Under the pieces are notes generated by a model. It ran no database searches. It worked only from the letters and a program-made list of their open reading frames with translations, and had not been told where the DNA came from. A program made the translations under genes and the position numbers. Below are positions 4,137-38,719 of a stretch of 64,000 nucleotides of DNA, piece after piece. Positions within the stretch are counted from its first letter, which is position 1. Each line of letters starts with the position of its first letter. Source of the stretch: Candidatus Schekmanbacteria bacterium. GTDB lineage: Bacteria; Schekmanbacteria; GWA2-38-11; J061. The stretch is taken from the NCBI GenBank assembly GCA_016219965.1, contig JACRJM010000007.1, positions 372,294 to 436,293 on the forward strand. Direction: 5' to 3'.

Positions 4137-5885
4137 ATGCGGATGATACGTGTCGGTGCAGCGCAGATAAATACAACTGTAGGGGACCTTGCCGGGAATA
4201 CGTCTAAGATGACGGAAATCATAAAAAAGGCCAAGGACTTATCTATTGATATTCTGACATTCCCCGAGCTTGCAATCACAGGCTACCCTCCCAAAGACCT
4301 TCTGCTCAAGAGAAAGTTCATTCAGGACAATATCCAGATGCTTGATAAAATATGTAATGCCTCAAAAGGGATCATAGTCATTGCCGGATTCGTTAACGAG
4401 GAAAATGACATTTTCAACTCCGCTGCAGTCATACAGAACGGAAAGATAGTCGGCATCCAGAACAAGATACACCTTCCTAATTACAGTGTCTTTGATGAAA
4501 AAAGATATTTCAGGAGCGGAAAGGAAAGCCTGCTTTTTAAAGGAAAGAACATGACCTTCGGCGTCAACATCTGTGAAGATATATGGATTCCCGGATACCC
4601 GACTGAAAACCAGGCAAGTTCCGGAGCCGAGCTTATAATCAACATATCGGCTTCCCCTTATCATGTCGGCAAACCTGCGTTCAGGGAGGAAATGCTTAAG
4701 ACACGATGCACTGACAACATTGTCGCCCTTGTGTTCAACAATCTTGTAGGGGGACAGGACGACCTTGTATTTGACGGGCGAAGCATGATCATAAACTGCA
4801 AAGGGGAAATCCTCAGGAGAGGAAAGCTTTTTGAGGAAGACCTTATAATGTCTGACATAAACCTTGATGACATAAAAAGGATGAGGCTCCAGGACCCGAG
4901 GGGAAGGGAAGAACTCATGACTCCCGATGAGCATAAAGTAACGATAGTAAATATTGACGGGAAAATTTCTTCAGCAAAACAGAAGAAGAGAATCAGAGTG
5001 AACAGCAAGGCAGAGAAGGCATCTGGAAACAAGATCAGCCGCGCTGAGGAAATCTACAAAGCACTGGTCCTGGGAGTAAGCGATTATCTCAGAAAAAACG
5101 GTTTCAAACAGGTAATCCTGGGATTGAGCGGCGGGATAGATTCTTCGCTTGTAGCGACTATTGCCGTTGACGCACTTGGCAAAGAAAATGTCATTGGGAT
5201 CGCAATGCCGACTTCCATATCCTCATCACACAGCATTGAAGATGCGCGCCATCTTGCAAAGAACCTCTCCATAAGATTCGAGGTGGTTCCAATACAGTCT
5301 GTCTTTGATGAATACACAGAGATACTTTCCCCGCTTTTCAAGGGACGCAAATGGGATGTAGCTGAAGAAAACATCCAGGCAAGGATAAGAGGAAACATAC
5401 TGATGGCTCTTTCCAATAAATTCGGATACCTGCTGCTCACAACAGGGAACAAGTCTGAGCTGAGCGTCGGCTATGCGACACTTTACGGTGACATGGCAGG
5501 TGGCCTTGCCGTAATATCCGATGTCCCGAAAACATGGGTATATGAACTTGCAAGGTACAGGAACTCAGTTGCAGGAAAATCGCTCATCCCTGAAAGGTGC
5601 ATCACAAAACCACCTTCAGCAGAGCTTCGGCCAAATCAGAAAGACACGGATTCTCTTCCCGAGTACGAAATCCTGGATCAGATACTTCATCTTTATATTG
5701 AAGAGGACAACAGCCTTGAAGAGATAGTACGCCGGGGGATTGATGAAAAAACCGCACGCGATATGATACAGAGGATAGACGGGAATGAATACAAGAGACA
5801 GCAGGCCCCTCCGGGCATAAGGATAACAACAAAGGCTTTCGGTTCTGGAAGAAGGATACCAATCACTAACAAGTACAGAGGTTAA
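4137..5885 (+). CDS. nadE: Glutamine-dependent NAD+ synthetase
   Basis: N-terminal nitrilase/CN-hydrolase domain fused to C-terminal NAD synthetase with PP-loop LGLSGGIDSS. Confidence 0.9.
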   Translation: MRMIRVGAAQINTTVGDLAGNTSKMTEIIKKAKDLSIDILTFPELAITGYPPKDLLLKRKFIQDNIQMLDKICNASKGIIVIAGFVNEENDIFNSAAVIQNGKIVGIQNKIHLPNYSVFDEKRYFRSGKESLLFKGKNMTFGVNICEDIWIPGYPTENQASSGAELIINISASPYHVGKPAFREEMLKTRCTDNIVALVFNNLVGGQDDLVFDGRSMIINCKGEILRRGKLFEEDLIMSDINLDDIKRMRLQDPRGREELMTPDEHKVTIVNIDGKISSAKQKKRIRVNSKAEKASGNKISRAEEIYKALVLGVSDYLRKNGFKQVILGLSGGIDSSLVATIAVDALGKENVIGIAMPTSISSSHSIEDARHLAKNLSIRFEVVPIQSVFDEYTEILSPLFKGRKWDVAEENIQARIRGNILMALSNKFGYLLLTTGNKSELSVGYATLYGDMAGGLAVISDVPKTWVYELARYRNSVAGKSLIPERCITKPPSAELRPNQKDTDSLPEYEILDQILHLYIEEDNSLEEIVRRGIDEKTARDMIQRIDGNEYKRQQAPPGIRITTKAFGSGRRIPITNKYRG

Positions 5886-30099: not shown

Positions 30100-30262
30100 G
30101 CACCAAAAATAAAAAAACCGGAAACCTAAAAGGTCCCGGCTATTATCAATAAGGCAAATCTTTGCTCCCTTCGCTGGCATTACCCAGATCAGGTTCAAAG
30201 GGTCACCCCGCAAACCGGGATTTCTCAGCCCTCATCAGGCTCCCCTAACAACCGCATATTAG
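30100..30262 (-). ncRNA. TPP (THI-box) riboswitch with terminator-type expression platform
   Basis: Minus-strand reads UAGGGGAGCCUGAUGAGGGCUGAGAAAUCCCGG..ACCCUUUGAACCUGAUCUGGGUAAUGCCAGCGAAGGGA, matching the conserved THI-element core (CUGAGA, ACCUGAUCUGG, UAAUGCCAGCG, AGGGA); followed by CCGGGA..UUUCCGG hairpin and U7 before the thiS start. Confidence 0.85.
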
Positions 30263-30298: not shown

Positions 30299-30338
30299 GC
30301 AATTTACTCCGTAAACCCTTTTCCCTTCATATCTTCCA
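30299..30338. repeat. Remnant copy A of the GNAT gene 3' end
   Basis: Minus strand reads ..GATATGAAGGGAAAAGGGTTTACGGAGTAA (..DMKGKGFTE*), matching the genuine GNAT C-terminus at 31500-31535; located just after the isochorismatase stop. Confidence 0.75.
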
Positions 30339-30346
30339 TCCCATAT

Positions 30347-30973
30347 TTACTTGCCGGACTTAAGCGACATATAGCTGTTGATAAGGTTGCGGTAGTCGGG
30401 GATGTGCTTAGAGAACAACATTCCCAGACCCTCAACATCATTGCGCCAGTCTCGATGCAATTCGCAGGCCACACCGAACCAGGTCATAAGTTGCGCACCT
30501 GCGGCAGACATGCGATCCCAGGCGGAATGTCGTGTAACCTCGTTGAATGTGCCCGAGGCATCTGTTACGACAAAGACTTCAAAGCCTTCCTCCAAGGCCG
30601 ACAACGCCGGAAAAGCGACACATACTTCAGTCACTATGCCGGCAACGATCAACTGCTTCTTGCCGGTAGACTTTACTGCCTTGACGAACTCCTCATTATC
30701 CCAGGCATTGATCTGGCCGGGACGGGCAATGTAGGGTGCACCAGGGAAGGTTTCCTTCAACTCTGTCATCAACGGCCCATTCGGCCCATCTTCAAAACTT
30801 GTAGTTAGGATGGTTGGTAGCTTGAAATATTTTGCGAGATCGGCCAGAGCCAAGACGTTATTCCTGAATGTATCCGGATCGATATCGCGCACTAGTGACA
30901 AGAGGCCGGACTGGTGATCTACCAACAGTACAGCGGCATTGTTTTTATCAAGACGAACATAGGATTTGCTCAT
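30347..30973 (-). CDS. Isochorismatase-family cysteine hydrolase
   Basis: MSKSYVRLDKNNAAVLLVDHQ..VAGIVTEVCVAFPALSALEEGFEVFVVTDA pattern; RBS AAAGGAG before the MSKS start; visibly higher GC than neighbouring genes. Confidence 0.8.
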   Translation of the reverse strand: MSKSYVRLDKNNAAVLLVDHQSGLLSLVRDIDPDTFRNNVLALADLAKYFKLPTILTTSFEDGPNGPLMTELKETFPGAPYIARPGQINAWDNEEFVKAVKSTGKKQLIVAGIVTEVCVAFPALSALEEGFEVFVVTDASGTFNEVTRHSAWDRMSAAGAQLMTWFGVACELHRDWRNDVEGLGMLFSKHIPDYRNLINSYMSLKSGK

Positions 30974-31110
30974 GGCATGACTCCTTTCATGGTTTGAGTT
31001 TAGTCTCAGACATGAATGGGTGAGAGATGATAACATACGTCATAAATCTTTTCCTCATTCTATACGCTTCTATTTTAAAATTAAATTATTGAAAAGAAAT
31101 TTGCAAGGAA

Positions 31111-31147
31111 TCTACTCGGTAAATCCTTTTCCCTTCATCTCATCTGG
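31111..31147. repeat. Remnant copy B of the GNAT gene 3' end
   Basis: Minus strand CCAGATGAGATGAAGGGAAAAGGATTTACCGAGTAG (PDEMKGKGFTE*) with an in-frame stop immediately upstream, so non-coding. Confidence 0.75.
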
Positions 31148-31215
31148 TTTTTAATGAACGGGAGAAACAGACTGGATTGCCCTCTATACGGGAACAATAA
31201 GAAAGACAAGTTTAT

Positions 31216-31416
31216 CTATCTTAAATCTGAAAGATTTCCTTCCCAAAGTCCTTTATGTCTTCCTGTGAGAAGCTTCTTCCTTTTTAACCGGCTCACCAAC
31301 TCACGCAGAGCCAGCTCAACCACTTCCTTTTTTGTTTTCAAGGAAGTCAATTTCTTTGCCTCGTTTATTAGTTTGTCTTCCAAAACTATATTGGTTCTTT
31401 TGGTATACATAATCAT
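31216..31416 (-). CDS. VapB-family type II antitoxin-like protein (orphan)
   Basis: MYTKRTNIVLEDKLINEAKKLT..KTKKEVVELALRELV..GLWEGNLSDLR resembles VapB antitoxins; no PIN-domain toxin gene adjacent. Confidence 0.55.
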   Translation of the reverse strand: MIMYTKRTNIVLEDKLINEAKKLTSLKTKKEVVELALRELVSRLKRKKLLTGRHKGLWEGNLSDLR

Positions 31417-31499
31417 CCTTCTTTACACATTAAAAAAGCTTATTATTTTTATGCAAGCAATAAGAAAAATAGTTTATCGATAGACAATATGCGAGTAAT

Positions 31500-31922
31500 T
31501 TACTCTGTGAATCCTTTTCCCTTCATCTCATCTGCTTTTCTGAAGAGTGCCATGCCGGTCTTCATTTTCCGCAATCCTAATTTTCTGTAAAAATCTTCTT
31601 TACCGGGAGAGGCAAAGAGGATGACATTGCACTGCGAGAGACGGGAGAGGATGTTTGTAATAATTTTAGTTCCAATCCCCTTTTTTTGGAATTCAGGGAC
31701 AACAGCTACATCATAGATAGCGGCCTGATAAGCCCCATCGGAAATTGCCCTGCCAAAACCAATCAACTGTCCGTCATGATAGACAAACACAGCGACATAG
31801 CTGTTCTCAAAGGCTTTCCTGTGTATGCCGGGCTCATGATACCCCATTCCGACACGCTTTAGCGTTTCCGATACCACTTTCCACTCCACTCCGGAACATT
31901 CAAATTTAATCTCTATTTCCAC
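31500..31922 (-). CDS. GNAT family N-acetyltransferase
   Basis: Acetyl-CoA binding motif (Q/R)xxGxG/A as QKKGIGTKI and overall GNAT pattern; the last ~12 codons are the source of the repeated tail sequence. Confidence 0.85.
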   Translation of the reverse strand: MEIEIKFECSGVEWKVVSETLKRVGMGYHEPGIHRKAFENSYVAVFVYHDGQLIGFGRAISDGAYQAAIYDVAVVPEFQKKGIGTKIITNILSRLSQCNVILFASPGKEDFYRKLGLRKMKTGMALFRKADEMKGKGFTE

Positions 31923-32000
31923 AAAGACCCCCTGAGGACTGAATGGTATCAGAGTGTAACACTGAGAGTATCATGCGATATTCAATTTGTTATTTTTTAA

Positions 32001-32249
32001 TTACTCTGCAACTTGATGGATAATCTCAGAGATATAAGTTTGATATTTTATACCTATTTTTTTTGCTTTAACTTTTATTTTTTCAATATCTTCACTATTA
32101 ACTCTTATAGTCATTGTTATATCTTTCTTTCGTGATTTAAGAGACCTCTCTATTTTTTCAAGTTCTTTACCTTTTATCTTTTTATACTCACCACGCAGTA
32201 ATGCGCTTTCAATCTCTCGTTCTTCTTTAGTTAATCTAATTTTTTTCAT
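32001..32249 (-). CDS. BrnA/CopG-like ribbon-helix-helix antitoxin-like protein (orphan)
   Basis: 82 aa; ITMTIRVNSEDIEKIKVKAKKIGIKYQTYISEIIHQ resembles the BrnA antitoxin family; no BrnT-like toxin adjacent. Confidence 0.5.
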   Translation of the reverse strand: MKKIRLTKEEREIESALLRGEYKKIKGKELEKIERSLKSRKKDITMTIRVNSEDIEKIKVKAKKIGIKYQTYISEIIHQVAE

Positions 32250-32282
32250 TGTTTATCTTTCAGGATTTTGTTTTTTTCTTCA

Positions 32283-32413
32283 TTATCCACAAACCGTTGC
32301 AATATTAGAGATAAGTTTTTTGAGTATTTTAACCTTCTGAATTTTTCACAAAGCTATTTTGTCTCTCGACTTAAACATTTATGACTTACATTTGTTAGCT
32401 ATGAAGATTTGAC
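32283..32413. repeat. ~130-bp direct repeat R1 (upstream of the 82-aa gene)
   Basis: About three-quarters identical by eye to 33361-33490 (shared blocks GAGATAAGTTTTT, TTTTTCAC, ATTTATGACTTA(C/T)ATTTGT, TATGAA). Confidence 0.7.
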
Positions 32414-32448
32414 CTTATTACCCTTTTGAACTTAATACATAGACAACA

Positions 32449-33318
32449 TCATCCTGCTCGTTTAATATCATTTTTAGTTAACTGATATATTGCTGCCTTT
32501 AAAACTTGCCAGCATATTGCAGCAGTGTGTTTATCAGGATTAAACCCACTACTAACTTGCTCATATGGGTGAATATAGTTTCTAAAATATCTTAACGAAT
32601 GACTAAATTTTCGTACATCTTCCAGTAGGAGACCTACATCATATGCTACATCAATAAAATTGTTTAATGACCAATCTGGAAATTGTTTAACTTTTCCTTC
32701 CTTATCTTTTGGTGACATCTTTGATTGATTAAATTCTTTTGGATGTTTTAAAGCTATTCCAAGTAAAATACCCTCCAGTGTACTTCCTGCAAGAAATATT
32801 ACAGAAAGTGGCGCAGTGACAGATAAACATTTTTTCATTTCTTCAAATCGATATTTCAATGTCTCGGTAATAACTCCATCAAGTCCAATTTTCTCAAGTG
32901 AAATTTCGCTAAACTCTCTTTTTAAAAACTCATCTTCTTCTGTTTCACTTGAACTATCTTCGAAGTTTATTTTATCAGCTTTTGCAAATATTATTTCTTT
33001 TTCATTCCTGACAACTTTCCAATTATCAAATGCGAGATATTGATTAAACTCTTTGATGAATTTGTCTAAATCAGCAAATCGACCAATGAAGTTTACTGGT
33101 GCAAACAATTTCTTGATACATTTGTCCAATTCAGGAGTACCGTTGATTTTGGAAAGCTTTTCATCTGTGTACATCCATCTTGAAGGGAATCCTTGTAAAT
33201 ATTGATCCTTAAATCCTAACTCATTAAAAAAACTAACTAATTGAGGGCCGGAACGATATTCCGTTTCTTCATTAATCAGGTTTCTTAATTTCTCAAGTGA
33301 TTTTTTCTGAAGAATCAT
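32449..33318 (-). CDS. Hypothetical protein with AbiJ-like N-terminal region and C-terminal HEPN-like Rx6H motif
   Basis: 289 aa; C-terminal RYFRNYIH fits the HEPN R-x(4-6)-H motif; assignment tentative. Confidence 0.4.
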   Translation of the reverse strand: MILQKKSLEKLRNLINEETEYRSGPQLVSFFNELGFKDQYLQGFPSRWMYTDEKLSKINGTPELDKCIKKLFAPVNFIGRFADLDKFIKEFNQYLAFDNWKVVRNEKEIIFAKADKINFEDSSSETEEDEFLKREFSEISLEKIGLDGVITETLKYRFEEMKKCLSVTAPLSVIFLAGSTLEGILLGIALKHPKEFNQSKMSPKDKEGKVKQFPDWSLNNFIDVAYDVGLLLEDVRKFSHSLRYFRNYIHPYEQVSSGFNPDKHTAAICWQVLKAAIYQLTKNDIKRAG

Positions 33319-33360
33319 TTTAATCCTATATTTGAAACAATAGATGGGGACAAATCTTCG

Positions 33361-33490
33361 TTATCTACAAACTGCTCACTCTGAGAGATAAGTTTTTCGA
33401 AAATTTTCACCCTCTACTTTTTTCACGCAGTCATTTCGTTTCTTGTCTCACAAATTTATGACTTATATTTGTCGTTATGAAAATTTTACA
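33361..33490. repeat. ~130-bp direct repeat R2 (upstream of the 289-aa gene)
   Basis: Paralogous to R1 at 32283-32413. Confidence 0.7.
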
Positions 33491-33660
33491 CTACTAGCCT
33501 CATCTTGTCTCCTTCGATTTTTATTGATCTAACACAGAATTGAGTAATGAGTCACTGAAAGATAACAATATGCCTACAACTAATTGGCATCCATCATAGC
33601 AATGTAAGCAAAAAAAACGACCTAACGCACTCGTTCAAGTGCAGCGTGTACTGGGGGGGG

Positions 33661-34023
33661 TCAGTCACTATATTTGGAAGTCTGCCATGAGTTAACCTCG
33701 AATAGTACGGCACAATCACCGGAATTATTCCAGACAGTTTTCTCAAGTCCCCAAAACATGAAGTGTGTTGTAGACCCATCTTGGTTCTTCTGTTCACTTG
33801 GTGTTCCCGATTTTGTATAAAGGACTACGGAGTCCCCAGCGCGTACCTCTTTTGGCTTGAACCAGTATGCGTGCCGTTGGAGGTTTGAGATTGCATTCTG
33901 AGACGTATACGTTGTGTCAAACACAATAAAGTAATTTAGGTTCGTAGTAGCAATGACTTTAAGCCACAACCGCTCTTTGTTGGCTACACCTCTGTCGACG
34001 ATATTGACTATTTCAATCTTCAT
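33661..34023 (-). CDS. Hypothetical protein (~120 aa)
   Basis: ORF starting MKIEIVNIVDRG; translationally coupled to the upstream membrane-protein gene (4-bp overlap); GC higher than surrounding housekeeping genes; no recognisable motif. Confidence 0.4.
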   Translation of the reverse strand: MKIEIVNIVDRGVANKERLWLKVIATTNLNYFIVFDTTYTSQNAISNLQRHAYWFKPKEVRAGDSVVLYTKSGTPSEQKNQDGSTTHFMFWGLEKTVWNNSGDCAVLFEVNSWQTSKYSD

Positions 34024-34484
34024 CTTTTTACAATCCTCCCGACAGATGCGCCCACTATAATGCATAAACCAACTATACCAGCGATGACGCCATATTCGGA
34101 CTTCTCTCCCCAAAAAAACGGCATCAGACCGATGATAGCGCCCCCGAGACCTACTCCTACGCCAAAAAAAATCTCTATTGCTTTTTGAGTCAGTAATTTC
34201 TCAGAGAGTACTGCTGCTTTCTTGTCGGATTCATGATAGAGGTTTATGTATGATCTTAAATACTCCCGCTCATCATCAGCTTCTTCGAGCAGGCCGAGGA
34301 TAAGCTTCTGCACGCCAGGGGAGAACAACTCTTCGTCGGTCAATTGCCTTCTAACATCTCTGAATGCTGCTCGTCGTCCAGATGGTGGCACACCAGACTC
34401 AATCGTGCCAGTTTCACGTGGTTCTGTTTCCTTTTTTTGACTGGGAGGGCCCAATGCTGAAGCCTCAGTTTTAACATCATTCAT
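34020..34484 (-). CDS. Hypothetical membrane protein (N-terminal soluble region, two C-terminal TM helices)
   Basis: 154 aa; C-terminal glycine-rich hydrophobic segments FFGVGVGLGGAIIGL and GVIAGIVGLCIIVGA. Confidence 0.45.
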   Translation of the reverse strand: MNDVKTEASALGPPSQKKETEPRETGTIESGVPPSGRRAAFRDVRRQLTDEELFSPGVQKLILGLLEEADDEREYLRSYINLYHESDKKAAVLSEKLLTQKAIEIFFGVGVGLGGAIIGLMPFFWGEKSEYGVIAGIVGLCIIVGASVGRIVKR

Positions 34485-34693
34485 TTTTCGCCTCCATCAT
34501 AATTTCAAAGACCTAACATTCCTCTTTATATTTATTCCCTGATTGTCAATTTTATACTCATCATTAAAATACTTAGTCAAGAAAAAGTGCCTATAAGATA
34601 ATTTGAACGTGTAAAAAAAGATAACAAATATTATAAAATGATTTATGATTGACAATCCATTCCATCAACTCAGAAATCTTAAAAGGTAAGATA

Positions 34694-35425
34694 ATGATAT
34701 GTCCTAAATGCAAAATAGAACAGGCTGACGGAAATACTGAATGCACAAGGTGCGGGATTATTTTCGAAAAATATGAAGAGCATCAGAATTTACTTGCTGA
34801 AGAAAAGATTCCTAAGGCTTGTGATGATGAAACAGTATCTTCTCTCATCTCATTAAAAGACTTCTTGTTCTACGTAGCTCCCGGCACCAATCCCTTTTAT
34901 CTTGGCGGGAGAATAATTGTTTTCTTATTCATTCTGGCCTGGAGCATAAACTTTTTCCGTTTTCCAATGGAGAGCAATCATTCGGGGGAAAGTTTCCTCC
35001 ATTTCATAAACATCCCCTTCCATGAAGCAGGGCATATTATATTCATGCCCTTTGGGAGATTTATGAGCGCTCTTGGCGGCACACTGGGGCAACTGCTCAT
35101 ACCGTTTGCCTGTCTTTTCACTTTCCTTATAAAAACACGTGACACCTTCGGAGGATCAGTAGCATTGTGGTGGACTGGAGAAAATTTTCTTGATATTGCC
35201 CCCTATATAAATGATGCGAGGGATTTAAATCTTTTACTCCTGGGCGGAGTGACAGGAAAGGAAGTTGAGGGGCATGACTGGGAATTCATTCTTGGCAAAC
35301 TACAGGCTCTCCGGTATGATCACACTATTGCAAATATTATCCATAATGCCGGAATCGTCGTGATGATTCTTTCGCTTTTATGGGGAGGGTACATTATTTT
35401 TAAACAGGTGATTTCAAGAGCATGA
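34694..35425 (+). CDS. Membrane protein with N-terminal zinc ribbon and HExxH motif (putative intramembrane zinc metallopeptidase)
   Basis: CPKC..CTRC zinc ribbon, then several TM segments containing FHEAGHIIF; start placed at MICPKCK after the AAGGTAAG RBS. Confidence 0.5.
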   Translation: MICPKCKIEQADGNTECTRCGIIFEKYEEHQNLLAEEKIPKACDDETVSSLISLKDFLFYVAPGTNPFYLGGRIIVFLFILAWSINFFRFPMESNHSGESFLHFINIPFHEAGHIIFMPFGRFMSALGGTLGQLLIPFACLFTFLIKTRDTFGGSVALWWTGENFLDIAPYINDARDLNLLLLGGVTGKEVEGHDWEFILGKLQALRYDHTIANIIHNAGIVVMILSLLWGGYIIFKQVISRA

Positions 35426-36099
35426 AGCTGATAAAGAATATTCCAATAAAAATTGATAAAGATGAGCTGTTAAAGATCCTGAAAATAAAAAAGGAGTCTG
35501 CGGGAAAAATCAATGACAATCTCGCAAGGCTGATAGATGAAGAAATAGCGCGGGGGATGAAACTCGCAAGGCCTCAGGCGCTTTATGAATTTAGAAAAGT
35601 AATAAATTCTGATGGTGACGGTGTTGAAATAGAAGGCGGCATAAAGATTGGCGAAAACACTTTCAAGAATTACATGACATCAATTGACCGAATCTGTTTT
35701 GCCCTTGTGACCATAGGTCCTGCCCTTGAAGAGGAGGCTGACAAGCTTCAAAAGGATGGCGAATACACCCGTGCAATGATACTCGATGCTGTAGGGTCAG
35801 TTGCAGTTGAAGATGCGGCAGGGAATTTAAACCACATGATTTGCGACAAATTAAAAGGGAAGAAAACCGGAATATCCCGCCGCTTCAGTCCTGGATATGG
35901 AAAGTTCAAGGTTAAGGAACAGAAAAAAATATCAGACATAATCCCATTCAAAAAAATTGGAGTGGCTCTCACATCATCATTCATGATGGTGCCTCAAAAG
36001 AGCATAAGCTTTTGCCTTTATACTGGAAAGCTTAAAAAAGAAATCCCCGGAACCTGTAATATATGCGGGATGAAGGATTGCCCTTACCGCAGCTGTTGA
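35422..36099 (+). CDS. Hypothetical protein with methionine-synthase-activation-domain-like RFSPGYG motif and C-terminal Cys cluster
   Basis: 225 aa; start overlaps the upstream stop (ATGA); RRFSPGYG; C-terminal CNICGMKDCPYRSC. Confidence 0.4.
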   Translation: MKLIKNIPIKIDKDELLKILKIKKESAGKINDNLARLIDEEIARGMKLARPQALYEFRKVINSDGDGVEIEGGIKIGENTFKNYMTSIDRICFALVTIGPALEEEADKLQKDGEYTRAMILDAVGSVAVEDAAGNLNHMICDKLKGKKTGISRRFSPGYGKFKVKEQKKISDIIPFKKIGVALTSSFMMVPQKSISFCLYTGKLKKEIPGTCNICGMKDCPYRSC

Positions 36100-36977
36100 C
36101 CGGTCTTATCTTTTTCCGGAATGAATGACCTTATCTGTTTGAGGCAGAAAAAATAGCTCAGGGTTTTTGTTGATACAAGAAGGAAGAGATAGAAAAGTGC
36201 GAAGGGCATATAAGACATGCCTTTAAGAAATATCTCATAAATATAAAAAACCGCCCCTGCCATGAAAAACAATTCTGTGAAAAGTCCTGCAATGCCTGCG
36301 CGGAAGAATCCAGTCTTCATATATGCGCCTCCCGGGATCAAAAGAGAATCCTGAAGAAGTTTCTTGTCATCCTTGAATTTTTTACCGCATGCCTGACAGC
36401 AAAAAACACCTTCTCTCAGAAGAGAAAGACAGTCAGGGCAGACATGATATGCAAACTTTACATTACCATTCTGTATGCTTCGCGGGGCGCTCAATATCCT
36501 GTTCTTAAGCCTTCCTGCAATATCTTCAATATCGGCTTTGCTAAGGTTCTCATAGGATAATGCAAGATTATCTCTGCATTTTACATCAAGGCTTTTCCAG
36601 ATTCCTGCTGAGCATCTGATATCTTTTATTGCAGAATATCTTACAATTCTTATCCTGTTTCCTAAGAGCAAAGGACCGCCGGTTGATATTTCAATAAGTC
36701 TCCTGTCAGTGAATACAAGAACGACTTTTTTGACAGTGTAAGCATAACAGAGAGTTATTACCGCCTCCCAGATTTTTATCTTTTCAGCGGCAGATACCAG
36801 CGCAAGGACTTCCTCATTTTTTTCGATCAGACTGGAAAGAAGCCCGGATATCTCTTCAAATGTTTTTATTTTAGACTTAGTTTGTTTATCATTTAATACT
36901 TTACTTGGCGGATCAACGAGCACCGCCCCGGGGAACTTAAAAGCTACTGTTTTAGTATTCATAATAACGTCACTCAT
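36084..36977 (-). CDS. Membrane protein with bacterial PH-like domain and CxxC zinc ribbon
   Basis: 297 aa; VVLVFTDRRLIEI bPH-like segment; CPDC..CQAC; C-terminal TM helices; RBS AGAGG before the start. Confidence 0.5.
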   Translation of the reverse strand: MSDVIMNTKTVAFKFPGAVLVDPPSKVLNDKQTKSKIKTFEEISGLLSSLIEKNEEVLALVSAAEKIKIWEAVITLCYAYTVKKVVLVFTDRRLIEISTGGPLLLGNRIRIVRYSAIKDIRCSAGIWKSLDVKCRDNLALSYENLSKADIEDIAGRLKNRILSAPRSIQNGNVKFAYHVCPDCLSLLREGVFCCQACGKKFKDDKKLLQDSLLIPGGAYMKTGFFRAGIAGLFTELFFMAGAVFYIYEIFLKGMSYMPFALFYLFLLVSTKTLSYFFCLKQIRSFIPEKDKTGQQLR

Positions 36978-37142
36978 ATAAGCCTCTATTTTTTAATTAG
37001 TCACTTTTAGAGCTATTTACAAGTGAGGGTTTCGGTTCACTGGAGGGATACTTAAGCAGTCAAATTATTTGGAGTAATTGGTAATAAAAAAGAATCGAAG
37101 GATTTAGAGATGACAAATCTGACGGCACGTTCGGGGAACGTG

Positions 37143-37246
37143 CCCTACAGAAGCGTAACATGTCCTACAGAAAATGATGCAGGGTCTGTGAGTTTATTTG
37201 TAGGGTCTGTGAGAATAGTTGTAGGGTCTGCTCCCCGAGCAGACCG
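37143..37246. promoter_or_regulatory. Array of five 21-bp-phased repeats plus a terminal palindrome (operator/iteron-like)
   Basis: CCCTACAG (37143), TCCTACAG (37163), then inverted-orientation TGCAGGGTCTGTGAG (37178), TGTAGGGTCTGTGAG (37199), TGTAGGGTCTGCTCC (37220), ending in palindrome GGTCTGCTC-CCC-GAGCAGACC; lies in the promoter region of the 36977 minus-strand gene. Confidence 0.5.
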
Positions 37247-37338
37247 GATAATTCATTAGAAAAGGAAGTGGTTTTCTATGAAAAAGTATTTATGAGCCAG
37301 TCACTGACGAAGTATAATGTTAAAATATTACGCTTGAG

Positions 37339-37638
37339 TCAGTGGTTATTGATGGGTTTAGAGGTAAGCCCGCTGATGAAATGCTTAAAACTTGCCCTCT
37401 CAATTATTTCTTCATCGGTCTGGGAGCAGTTATTCTCTTCAAGAAAAGCTTCCCAGCACTGATGCGTATAAACACATTTTGTAAAACAATACTCAGCGTA
37501 TTCTTTTTCCTCAGTCAGAAAGTCTATTGGATTATCTTCTGCCTCATTTATGGCATAATAACCATTTCCAAAGCACCAGCAACCAATACATCCGAATTTC
37601 TCAGCAAGCTGACTGGATCTGTCTTTTCTTTCACCCAT
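37339..37638 (-). CDS. Small cysteine-rich protein (99 aa), unknown function
   Basis: Strong RBS AGGAGA; seven Cys (CIGCWC..C..C..C..C). Confidence 0.5.
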   Translation of the reverse strand: MGERKDRSSQLAEKFGCIGCWCFGNGYYAINEAEDNPIDFLTEEKEYAEYCFTKCVYTHQCWEAFLEENNCSQTDEEIIERASFKHFISGLTSKPINNH

Positions 37639-37765
37639 ATTATTATCTCCTGATTAGATGTTATTTATCACTACTTCCCATGATATTCAAGAAATAATTT
37701 ATTTGAGCAATTTAGTATATTCCGCCCAGCTTTACTTTTAGTTTATTACATTGTAAAATCTGTGA

Positions 37766-38530: not shown

Positions 38531-38540
38531 ATAAAAAAAA

Positions 38541-38612
38541 GGCGGCATCCGGACTCGAACCGGAGAATAACGGTTTTGCAGACCGCTGCCTTAGCCACTT
38601 GGCTATGCCGCC
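38541..38612 (-). tRNA. tRNA-Cys (GCA)
   Basis: 72-nt cloverleaf on the minus strand GGCGGCAUAGCCAAGUGGCUAAGGCAGCGGUCUGCAAAACCGU..GGUUCGAGUCCGGAUGCCGCC; anticodon loop CUGCAAA. Confidence 0.9.
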
Positions 38613-38642
38613 GGATTGATTTCTTTCTGCCAAAAAGCAAAA

Positions 38643-38719
<77 letters not shown>

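What the first reader, a model, noticed from the sequence alone, without database searches (positions are those of the whole stretch)
31216..33318. Orphan antitoxin-like genes next to a HEPN/AbiJ-like protein
A VapB-like (66 aa) and a BrnA/RHH-like (82 aa) gene both lack the adjacent toxin normally found overlapping them (PIN-domain VapC or BrnT). The 289-aa gene upstream of the BrnA-like gene has a C-terminal Rx6H (RYFRNYIH) consistent with a HEPN RNase, so it may be a non-canonical toxin partner, or the antitoxins may be stand-alone regulators or anti-defense decoys. The family assignments are by eye and tentative.
Basis: partly seen in the sequence, partly recalled or inferred. Interest (0 to 1): 0.55.

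Follow-up and report, generated by a model that had tools for sequence, protein, structure and literature searches.

The report
Solo HEPN defence gene, two antitoxin relics
A small strain-variable patch of a Candidatus Schekmanbacteria genome carries a stand-alone AbiJ-type HEPN (predicted RNase) defence gene and two antitoxin genes whose toxin partners have been deleted; the parts are real but unrelated, so the finding is largely ordinary.

Summary

- **66-aa protein:** a VapB antitoxin by Pfam. Its PIN toxin gene and its last 7 residues have been cut away.
- **82-aa protein:** a CopG/BrnA-type ribbon-helix-helix antitoxin. Two close relatives' loci carry an overlapping, complete BrnT-like toxin gene upstream. 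Here only an 18-codon brnT stub remains.

The HEPN domain is not Pfam Abi_C. It borders DUF4145, an architecture catalogued in 2013.

The toxin–antitoxin pairing idea is not supported. None of 84 homologue loci has a BrnA-like neighbour, and none has a conserved partner of any kind. These loci sit in restriction-modification operons and defence islands.

A contig about 93% identical lacks both the HEPN/brnA block and the vapB unit, so all three are accessory DNA.

One oddity remains. The same ~148-nt element, which includes the first codons of brnT, precedes both the HEPN gene and brnA. Shared regulation is therefore possible but untested.

Verdict: a new member of a known kind, of low to moderate interest.

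The parts
32449..33318 (-). 289-aa single-gene Abi-type protein with two domains. AbiJ-type N-terminal domain: residues ~1-115, window ~32974-33318. DUF4145-like HEPN domain: residues ~140-285, window ~32464-32901.
32569..32592 (-). Codons for R243-Y-F-R246-N247-Y-I-H250, the putative HEPN catalytic motif. It reads as Rx6H counted from R243, or RNxxH counted from R246.
   Evidence: R246, N247 and H250 are invariant in 84/84 loci and in the 51-sequence diverse alignment. R243 is kept in 83/84. The structural model is least confident here: pLDDT is below 50 at residues 245-256.
32001..32249 (-). Intact 82-aa CopG/BrnA-type ribbon-helix-helix antitoxin gene with no functional toxin gene beside it (an orphan).
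   Evidence: Sub-threshold Pfam hits to NikA-like, CopG_antitoxin and BrnA. It is 76-86% identical to relatives annotated with PF12441 and is full length against them. DNA homology to brnTA loci starts 4 nt before its ATG.
32246..32302 (-). Remnant of the brnT toxin gene: a TTG start, 17 further codons (QRFVDNEEKNKILKDKQ) and a stop that overlaps the brnA ATG as ATGA.
   Evidence: It is the top-ranked ungapped tblastn hit in the whole window for the BrnT N-termini of L179 and L087. The L179 hit is colinear from residue 1 to 18. The L087 hit covers residues 7-18 and contains the stretch EEKNKILK matching 8/8. The sequence was read.
32277..32424 (-). R1b: a ~148-nt non-coding element directly upstream of brnA. 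Its 3' end is the start of the brnT stub.
   Evidence: 75% identical to R1a over 148 nt, E 1e-21. Mismatches show no 3-nt periodicity.
33355..33500 (-). R1a: a second copy of the same element, directly upstream of the HEPN gene. It keeps the ...QFVDNED codons and then diverges.
   Evidence: It was not found in other loci or in the metagenome scan.
31500..31922 (-). 140-aa GNAT acetyltransferase. It is a resident gene, not a toxin-antitoxin toxin.
   Evidence: Pfam Acetyltransf_1/7/10, E about 1e-11. The PDB relatives are serotonin N-acetyltransferase and uncharacterised GNATs. Homologues have no conserved small upstream ORF. It is present, as a pseudogene, in the close relative L140.
31216..31416 (-). 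VapB antitoxin gene (64-66 aa) truncated at its 3' end. The vapC gene has been deleted.
   Evidence: Pfam VapB_antitoxin, E 2.7e-16. Homologues are 70 aa and overlap a 138-aa PIN gene. Homology ends at 31229. The last 7 conserved residues are missing. No PIN-like sequence exists anywhere in the window.
31077..31151 (-). R2-B: an extra copy of the GNAT 3' end plus its downstream sequence. Together with R2-A (31465-31539) it brackets the vapB unit.
   Evidence: 80% identical over 75 nt. The core has 3 copies against 0.01 expected by chance. The ...KGFTE tail is native to this GNAT family.
31927..34692 (.). Strain-variable block carrying the 154-aa and 150-aa genes, R1a, the HEPN gene, R1b and brnA.
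   Evidence: It is absent from the ~93% identical contig L140, which has about 100 nt of unrelated spacer there instead. GC content is 27-33% across the HEPN gene, R1 and brnA, against about 43% for the window.

Best explanation
The interval holds three unrelated accessory items next to a resident GNAT gene.

(1) The 289-aa gene is a self-contained, single-gene abortive-infection-type defence gene. An AbiJ-type N-terminal domain is joined to a DUF4145-like HEPN domain. By analogy with the AbiJ, HepT and Csm6 HEPN proteins, the N-terminal domain is inferred to sense a phage cue or to hold the enzyme in check. The HEPN domain is inferred to dimerise and use R246/N247/H250, possibly with R243, to cut RNA and stop growth of the infected cell.

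(2) The 82-aa gene is what remains of a brnT-brnA toxin-antitoxin operon after an internal deletion reduced brnT to 18 codons.

(3) The 66-aa gene is what remains of a vapBC operon after vapC and the last 7 vapB codons were deleted.

The two antitoxins are therefore relics. At most they act as autorepressors or as neutralisers of related toxins encoded elsewhere. They are not partners of the HEPN protein.

Shown: the folds, the family relationships, the breakpoints, the lack of conserved pairing, and the strain variability. Inferred: RNase activity, the defence role and the sensor role of the N-terminal domain.
For: HEPN fold and motif:
- The motif is invariant.

Domain relationships:
- The N-terminal domain is homologous to that of an Abi_C-containing plasmid Abi protein, hhalign probability 99.1%. 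It also matches the PADLOC AbiJ and Stk2 models.
- 7 of 51 diverse relatives of the C-terminal domain hit Pfam DUF4145, one of them above the gathering score.
- Anantharaman et al. 2013 list AbiJ-NTD1 fused to DUF4145 HEPN domains and note their occurrence in restriction-modification operons (PMC3710099).

Genomic context of homologues:
- A type III restriction-modification operon, with the gene 3 nt after the methylase.
- Between type I hsdS and hsdR.
- Next to TIR-TPR, AAA_15/21 and ParE/Phd genes.
- Upstream neighbours include N6_Mtase/Eco57I, T5orf172, Abi_C, SLFN helicase and DUF4365.
- The domain also occurs N-terminally on an NB-ARC NTPase.
- There is no conserved partner.

Antitoxin relics:
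- brnA relatives pair with BrnT, and a brnT stub survives here.
- vapB relatives pair with PIN toxins, and the breakpoint and tail loss are visible here.

Strain variability: the close relative L140 lacks both the HEPN/brnA block and the vapB unit.
Against: - No activity data exist for this HEPN subfamily.
- The protein itself matches no Pfam HEPN model, neither Abi_C nor DUF4145, at E <= 1.
- The structural model is weakest exactly at the motif, with pLDDT below 50 at residues 245-256.
- Foldseek against the PDB found nothing significant, best E 0.3.
- The R246-to-H250 spacing is Rx3H, shorter than the canonical Rx4-6H. Only the less strictly conserved R243 gives Rx6H.
- The duplicated R1 element in front of both the HEPN gene and brnA is not explained by pure coincidence and could mean a functional link.
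- Both antitoxin ORFs are still open. BrnA is also full length and well conserved, which pure decay does not predict. VapB has lost its 7-residue tail.
Confidence: 0.75

Rival explanations
1. Rewired regulation. R1 is the 5' control region of a brnTA operon. One copy now drives the HEPN gene and the other drives brnA. The orphan BrnA, a ribbon-helix-helix DNA-binding autorepressor, would then repress both promoters. The HEPN effector would occupy the 'toxin slot' and be under antitoxin transcriptional control.
For: R1a and R1b are 75% identical over 148 nt, in the same orientation, each ending 27-36 nt before its gene's ATG. The 3' end of R1b is a brnT 5' stub, and R1a keeps its first codons. 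The HEPN gene, R1 and brnA share an unusually low GC content of 27-33% and are jointly absent from L140. From established knowledge, BrnA-type antitoxins autoregulate their own operons.
Against: The operator-like repeat in native brnTA promoters, TGTAAATACA in L085, L087 and L179, is absent from both R1 copies even allowing 2 mismatches. The part of R1 upstream of the stub shows no similarity to those native promoters. No other HEPN homologue locus has a brnA neighbour or an R1 element. No convincing promoter was called inside the conserved core.
Confidence: 0.1
2. Hybrid toxin-antitoxin pair. The HEPN protein is the toxin and the downstream 82-aa ribbon-helix-helix protein neutralises it by direct binding.
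For: The gene order, with the toxin first and the ribbon-helix-helix antitoxin second, matches the BrnT-BrnA layout. The two genes are adjacent on the same strand.
Against: Relatives of the 82-aa protein are absent from the first 80 HEPN homologue loci. No downstream partner is conserved across 72 loci. There is a 199-nt gap containing a separate R1 copy. BrnA relatives pair with BrnT, and a brnT stub shows that was also the case here. AbiJ-type proteins are single-gene systems in which the N-terminal domain is thought to do the regulating.
Confidence: 0.04
3. RHH-GNAT toxin-antitoxin module of the TacA-TacT or AtaR-AtaT type. The 82-aa ribbon-helix-helix protein would be the antitoxin of the GNAT gene 78 nt downstream.
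For: A ribbon-helix-helix gene immediately upstream of a small GNAT gene on the same strand is the layout of GNAT toxin systems.
Against: The PDB relatives of the GNAT are serotonin N-acetyltransferase and uncharacterised GNATs. None of the six chains at E <= 0.01 is annotated as a toxin-antitoxin GNAT toxin. The 82-aa protein gave no hit to the antitoxin domain typical of such systems, and its ribbon-helix-helix motif is C-terminal, as in BrnA. About 30 GNAT homologue loci have no conserved small upstream ORF, and none of the 80 GNAT loci fetched has a relative of the 82-aa protein. L140 has the GNAT without brnA. GC content differs, 48% against 27%.
Confidence: 0.03
4. The orphan antitoxins are retained for a function in trans. 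They could neutralise related toxins brought in by plasmids or phages (anti-addiction), or neutralise toxin-antitoxin-based defence.
For: Both ORFs are open. BrnA is full length with all family-invariant residues. vapB keeps its conserved upstream region. Another brnA with only a brnT remnant occurs in L178.
Against: VapB has lost the conserved 7-residue C-terminal tail. From general knowledge of VapB antitoxins, the C-terminal region is what contacts the toxin. No cognate toxin is present in the window. Loss of the toxin before the antitoxin is the expected order of neutral decay.
Confidence: 0.1

Closest known systems
AbiJ (Abi-859) of Lactococcus lactis and the Abi_C/SadR proteins
   Same: A single ~280-aa polypeptide with a variable AbiJ-type N-terminal domain followed by a C-terminal HEPN domain. 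The N-terminal domain here is homologous to that of an Abi_C-bearing protein. These genes sit in defence islands and near restriction-modification systems.
   Different: The C-terminal domain does not match Pfam Abi_C at E <= 1. The hhalign alignment stops at residue 109. It is a different HEPN family with a KKFSHxLRDFRNYIHPYEQ signature.
DUF4145 (PF13643) HEPN family, including the AbiJ-NTD1-DUF4145 fusions listed by Anantharaman et al. 2013
   Same: Relatives of the C-terminal domain hit DUF4145: 7 of 51, with P0438 above the gathering score. The same kinds of fusion and the same restriction-modification operon context are described for DUF4145.
   Different: The window protein and most of its close relatives score below detection against the DUF4145 model. 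The subfamily is unusually conserved, at 72-90% identity across phyla.
HepT/MntA and other minimal HEPN toxins (5yep, 7ae2, 7bxo)
   Different: Those toxins are ~130-aa proteins neutralised by a cognate MNT nucleotidyltransferase antitoxin. There is no MNT gene here, and the HEPN domain is fused to an N-terminal domain.
BrnT-BrnA type II toxin-antitoxin system
   Same: The 82-aa protein is a CopG/BrnA-type C-terminal ribbon-helix-helix antitoxin. Relatives show the toxin-first overlapping operon.
   Different: Here brnT is reduced to 18 codons. Scores against the curated BrnA models are below threshold.
VapBC type II toxin-antitoxin system
   Same: The 66-aa protein clearly matches VapB_antitoxin. 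Relatives overlap a PIN-domain VapC gene.
   Different: vapC is absent and the VapB C-terminal tail is truncated.

Membership tests
HEPN superfamily | Four-helix up-down HEPN fold | tested here: met
HEPN superfamily | Conserved Rx4-6H motif at the start of the last core helix | tested here: met
   R243-x6-H250 is present. R243 is kept in 83/84 loci and H250 in 84/84. The strictly invariant pair R246/H250 gives Rx3H, which is atypical. Model confidence at the motif is low.
HEPN superfamily | Metal-independent RNase activity | not testable with these tools
   This needs purified protein, or in vivo RNA cleavage assays with R246A and H250A controls.
AbiJ family (Pfam Abi_C HEPN domain) | C-terminal domain matches Abi_C (PF14355) | tested here: not met
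   No Pfam family at E <= 1. An Acinetobacter plasmid protein with the same N-terminal domain does hit Abi_C at 3.5e-22. The profile alignment to it covers only residues 1-109.
AbiJ family (Pfam Abi_C HEPN domain) | AbiJ-type N-terminal domain | tested here: met
   hhalign probability 99.1%, E 6.6e-19, 37% identity to the N-terminal domain of the Abi_C protein. PADLOC AbiJ E 2.4e-4 and Stk2 E 1.1e-11 over residues 19-152. The Pfam AbiJ_NTD3/4/5 models are not hit, so type 1 or 2 is inferred only by elimination.
DUF4145 HEPN family (PF13643) | Match to the Pfam model | tested here: inconclusive
   The protein's own sequence gives no hit. 7 of 51 diverse homologues hit the model, and P0438 scores 29.4 bits against a cut-off of 23.1, within the homologous region.
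VapB antitoxin (VapBC) | VapB_antitoxin domain | tested here: met
   59.6 bits against a cut-off of 23.4.
VapB antitoxin (VapBC) | Adjacent, overlapping PIN-domain VapC gene | tested here: not met
   It is present in L088-L090 but absent here. Homology ends at 31229, and tblastn finds no PIN-like sequence in the window.
BrnA / CopG_antitoxin (BrnTA) | Match to the curated antitoxin models | tested here: inconclusive
   CopG_antitoxin 26.4 bits against 28. BrnA 19 against 26.1. NCBIfam BrnA 17.1 against 60. Relatives 76-86% identical carry precomputed PF12441.
BrnA / CopG_antitoxin (BrnTA) | Upstream overlapping BrnT toxin gene | tested here: not met
   Only an 18-codon stub remains. Intact BrnT-like genes are present in L085, L087 and L179.
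RHH-GNAT toxin-antitoxin systems (TacAT/AtaRT type) | GNAT toxin related to known toxin-antitoxin GNATs and conserved pairing with an upstream antitoxin | tested here: not met
   The PDB hits are serotonin N-acetyltransferase and unknown GNATs. Homologues have no conserved upstream small ORF and no relative of the 82-aa protein.
Integron gene cassette (attC) | attC-like imperfect hairpin with RYYYAAC and GTTRRRY boxes flanking each cassette | tested here: not met
   Neither strand of R1 forms a shared stable hairpin, z -0.36 to -2.44 with different folds in the two copies. The boxes were not found at the R1 ends by inspection of the sequence. No third copy follows brnA.

The most novel reading that the evidence does not exclude
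A brnTA operon has been rewired. Its 5' control region was duplicated, the BrnT toxin was lost, and an AbiJ-type HEPN effector now sits behind one copy while the surviving BrnA ribbon-helix-helix repressor sits behind the other. A former antitoxin would then gate expression of an unrelated abortive-infection RNase. This would be an example of a toxin-antitoxin regulatory chassis being reused for a different effector.
Probability: 0.08. Interest if true: 0.55.

Novelty: new member of a known kind. Interest (0 to 1): 0.27.

Why it matters
The result mainly clarifies an annotation. A 'hypothetical protein' found in thousands of genomes across many phyla can be labelled an AbiJ-NTD/DUF4145-like HEPN defence gene. 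The two 'orphan antitoxins' can be labelled relics of toxin-antitoxin decay, with mapped breakpoints.

The HEPN subfamily is large, with 1394 clusters at 50% identity. It is very strongly conserved, repeatedly embedded in restriction-modification operons, and experimentally untouched. It is therefore a reasonable candidate for a defence screen.

The shared R1 element is the only feature that could lead to something new, namely an antitoxin reused as a regulator of a defence gene.

Tried and rejected
1. **R1 as a conserved RNA or riboswitch.** Rfam gave only the TPP riboswitch and two tRNAs. The folds of the two copies differ and are not unusually stable.
2. **R1 as an attC or integron cassette boundary.** No shared hairpin and no R'/R'' boxes were found (and the sequence).
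3. **R1 elsewhere.** It was not found in 84 homologue loci. An exact-pattern scan of metagenome contigs found nothing. That pattern search has low sensitivity for copies only 75% identical.
4. **R1 as a degraded coding region.** Mismatches show no codon periodicity, 12/8/10. A 31-codon upstream ORF in R1a ends in ATGA at the HEPN start, but its frame is not conserved in R1b upstream of a 1-nt indel.
5. **Native BrnA operator (TGTAAATACA) in R1.** Absent.
6. **A conserved partner gene for the HEPN family.** The downstream ORFs of 72 loci cluster only into small lineage-specific groups.
7. **Direct repeats flanking the HEPN gene in other genomes.** These were seen only in L055, L059, L073 and L077, which carry a different N-terminal domain; L042 gave one weaker match. 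In L059 and L077 the gene lies in a type I restriction-modification locus, and the repeat looks like a duplicated hsdS 3' end.
8. **Viral structural relatives.** None was significant in BFVD. PHROGs hit only residues 19-67 of the N-terminal domain.
9. **AFDB fold search.** The library was unavailable.
10. **Sequence search of the PDB.** Nothing was found with the protein or with a family profile.
Full report
**What is there.** The window comes from a Candidatus Schekmanbacteria MAG: the 289-aa protein is identical to HZA77_10290. All genes discussed here lie on the minus strand. Reading in the direction of transcription, the order is as follows:

- a 154-aa gene and a 150-aa gene;
- a ~148-nt element, R1a;
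- the 289-aa gene (33318..32449);
- a second copy of the element, R1b;
- the 82-aa gene (32249..32001);
- a 140-aa GNAT acetyltransferase gene (31922..31500);
- the 66-aa gene (31416..31216);
- an isochorismatase-family gene;
- the TPP riboswitch and the thiS-thiG-thiE-thiD operon.

**The 66-aa gene.** It is a clear VapB antitoxin: Pfam VapB_antitoxin, E 2.7e-16, 59.6 bits against a cut-off of 23.4.

- Relatives 75-78% identical are 70 aa long. Each is followed by a 138-aa PIN gene that overlaps it by 14 nt.
- In the window, nucleotide homology to those loci runs from about 45 nt upstream of the start codon to position 31229 and then stops.
- The conserved C-terminal tail RRKRxDT is replaced by a premature stop.
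- No PIN-like sequence exists anywhere in the 64 kb.

This is a vapBC operon from which vapC and the tip of vapB have been removed.

**The 82-aa gene.** On its own it scores just below the curated thresholds: NikA-like 26.3 against 27, CopG_antitoxin 26.4 against 28, BrnA 19 against 26.1.

- It is 76-86% identical to a large set of 82-83-aa proteins that carry PF12441.
- It is full length against them, with every family-invariant residue present.
- In L085/L086 and L087, the relative is preceded by an overlapping 87-90-aa gene. One of these products gives a sub-threshold BrnT_toxin match, E 3.6e-4.
- L179 has an intact brnT-brnA pair. L178 retains only the 3' end of brnT.
- In the window, homology to these loci begins 4 nt before the brnA ATG.

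Directly upstream, in the frame whose TGA stop overlaps the brnA ATG, lies an 18-codon remnant: TTG-QRFVDNEEKNKILKDKQ-stop. It aligns without gaps to the first 18 residues of BrnT. It is the top-ranked ungapped hit in the whole window for two of three BrnT N-termini tested. brnT was therefore destroyed by an internal deletion, and brnA survives.

**The 289-aa gene.** No Pfam or NCBIfam model recognises it, and it has no sequence relative in the PDB.

Across 84 homologue loci, R246, N247, Y248, I249, H250, P251 and Q254 are invariant, and R243 is kept in 83. In a diverse 51-sequence alignment the invariant residues are R157, E182, W216, I222, R246, N247 and H250.
- *Caveats.* The model is least confident at residues 245-256. 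The strictly invariant R246/H250 pair is spaced Rx3H, and only R243 gives the canonical Rx6H.
- *N-terminal domain.* Residues 19-152 match the PADLOC AbiJ and Stk2 models. Residues 1-109 are homologous, at hhalign probability 99.1% and 37% identity, to the N-terminal domain of an Acinetobacter plasmid 'abortive infection family protein' whose C-terminus is a bona fide Abi_C domain.
- *C-terminal domain.* The two C-terminal domains do not align, so this is an AbiJ-type N-terminal domain on a different HEPN family. That family has 1394 clusters at 50% identity in 1.84 billion representatives. 7 of 51 diverse members hit Pfam DUF4145, one above the gathering score, within the homologous region.
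- *Literature.* Anantharaman et al. 2013 list AbiJ-NTD1 fused to DUF4145 HEPN domains and to protein kinases. They also note the association of these proteins with restriction-modification operons. AbiJ itself is a single-gene abortive-infection system of unknown mechanism.

**Is it paired with the 82-aa protein?** No evidence supports this.

- None of the first 80 homologue loci contains a relative of the 82-aa protein, the GNAT, VapB or the 150/154-aa proteins.
- The nearest relatives share 89% nucleotide identity with the window only from -17 to the stop codon of the ORF.
- The genes downstream of the HEPN gene in 72 loci fall into small lineage-specific groups with no common partner.

What recurs instead is defence context:

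- a gene 3 nt downstream of a type III methylase;
- genes between hsdS and hsdR;
- genes next to TIR-TPR, AAA_15/21 and ParE/Phd genes;
- upstream neighbours carrying N6_Mtase/Eco57I, HSDR_N, T5orf172, Abi_C, DUF4365 and Schlafen-helicase domains;
- the HEPN domain at the N-terminus of an NB-ARC NTPase.

The best-supported mechanism is therefore a self-contained Abi-type protein. The N-terminal domain would sense or restrain, and a dimeric HEPN RNase would act as the effector. This is an inference from family knowledge, not a demonstration.

**The GNAT gene is not a toxin.** Its PDB relatives are serotonin N-acetyltransferase and uncharacterised GNATs. About 30 homologues sit in varied contexts without a conserved small upstream ORF.

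**Strain variability.** A metagenome contig, L140, is about 92-94% identical to the window on both sides.

- It lacks window 31927-34692 entirely. That block holds the 154-aa and 150-aa genes, R1a, the HEPN gene, R1b and brnA. L140 has about 100 nt of unrelated spacer there.
- It also lacks the vapB unit.
- Its GNAT gene carries a 214-nt internal deletion.

The HEPN gene, R1 and brnA have 27-33% GC, and vapB has 33%, against about 43% for the window. All three items of the finding are recently gained or lost accessory DNA.

**What remains unexplained.**

- *R1.* Two copies, 75% identical over 148 nt, precede the HEPN gene and brnA. The 3' end of R1b is the brnT stub, and R1a keeps its first codons. 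The HEPN gene thus sits behind a duplicated brnT 5' region, which invites the idea that BrnA regulates both. However, the operator-like repeat of native brnTA promoters, TGTAAATACA, is absent from R1. R1 has no conserved fold and was found nowhere else.
- *R2.* Three copies of the GNAT 3' end bracket the vapB and isochorismatase units. The tail is native to this GNAT family, and L140 has a single copy where the window has R2-A, vapB and R2-B. This suggests repeated insertion or recombination at the 3' end of the GNAT gene.

**Verdict.** The family guesses are right. The proposed functional link between the HEPN protein and the antitoxins is not supported. The locus is a stand-alone member of a known but uncharacterised HEPN architecture, next to two decayed toxin-antitoxin modules.

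Noticed in passing
window 30301-30336, 31077-31151, 31465-31539: There are three copies of the GNAT gene's 3' end, which encodes ...[DE][DE]MKGKGFTE followed by a stop. Differences between copies fall mostly at synonymous positions. The copies bracket the vapB unit and the isochorismatase unit as direct repeats. The tail is native to this GNAT family. The close relative L140 has a single copy between the GNAT and isochorismatase genes. This suggests serial insertion or recombination at the GNAT 3' end.
   Followed up: partly
L153:1658-1762, L154:3001-3105, L145:294-431: Isolated 35-46-codon fragments of the same GNAT 3' end occur inside other metagenome contigs. One (L145) lies next to a pair of small overlapping ORFs that I read by eye as a ParE/RelE-like toxin-antitoxin pair; no family search was run on them. 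The GNAT 3' end may be a recurrent hotspot.
   Followed up: partly
L140 (Ga0265292_1010806) against window 30576-37693: This contig is about 93% identical to the window. It lacks the 2.77-kb HEPN/brnA block and the vapB unit, and its GNAT gene has a 214-nt internal deletion. It is population-level evidence that this spot is hypervariable.
   Followed up: yes
P0001-P0120; L001-L049: The 289-aa protein is 72-90% identical to proteins in MAGs assigned to very distant lineages. These include Syntrophorhabdaceae, a Helarchaeota archaeon, Zixibacteria, Bacteroidales, Sedimentisphaerales, Cloacimonadota, Clostridia and Chloroflexota. For the closest relatives, nucleotide homology is confined to the ORF. 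This implies frequent wide-range transfer of a single gene by an unknown vehicle.
   Followed up: partly
L059:3607-3665 and 4535-4593; L077, L055, L073: Homologues carrying the same HEPN domain on a different N-terminal domain are bracketed by direct repeats of 41-59 nt. In L059 and L077, where ORFs were listed, the gene follows an hsdS-like gene (an hsdR-like gene follows in L077), and the repeat looks like a duplicated hsdS 3' end.
   Followed up: partly
P0426 (707 aa): The same HEPN domain sits at the N-terminus of a large protein. P0426 carries NB-ARC, winged-helix and APAF1_C domains. This fits an effector role in STAND-type immune sensors.
   Followed up: no
window 33661-34484 (minus strand): Two overlapping ORFs lie inside the variable block. 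One is a 154-aa protein with an apparently hydrophobic, probably membrane-spanning C-terminus. The other is a ~120-150-aa protein with a weak Lamin-tail-domain hit. Both have about 45% GC, unlike the HEPN/brnA part. Their function is unknown and they are not found near HEPN homologues.
   Followed up: no
L178:1348-1500; L179:1131-1391: Among the closest brnA relatives, L178 keeps only the last ~25 codons of brnT. L179 has an intact brnT that the gene caller missed. Loss of brnT with retention of brnA has therefore happened at least twice in this subfamily (here and in L178).
   Followed up: yes
window 33315-33410 (minus strand): A 31-codon GTG-initiated ORF inside R1a ends in ATGA overlapping the start of the HEPN gene. 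Its frame is not conserved in R1b, so it is probably not a real gene.
   Followed up: yes
window 30149-30256 (minus strand); 38540-38719: A TPP riboswitch precedes the thiS-thiG-thiE-thiD operon, directly downstream of the variable region. tRNA-Cys and tRNA-Gly genes lie about 4 kb on the other side.
   Followed up: no
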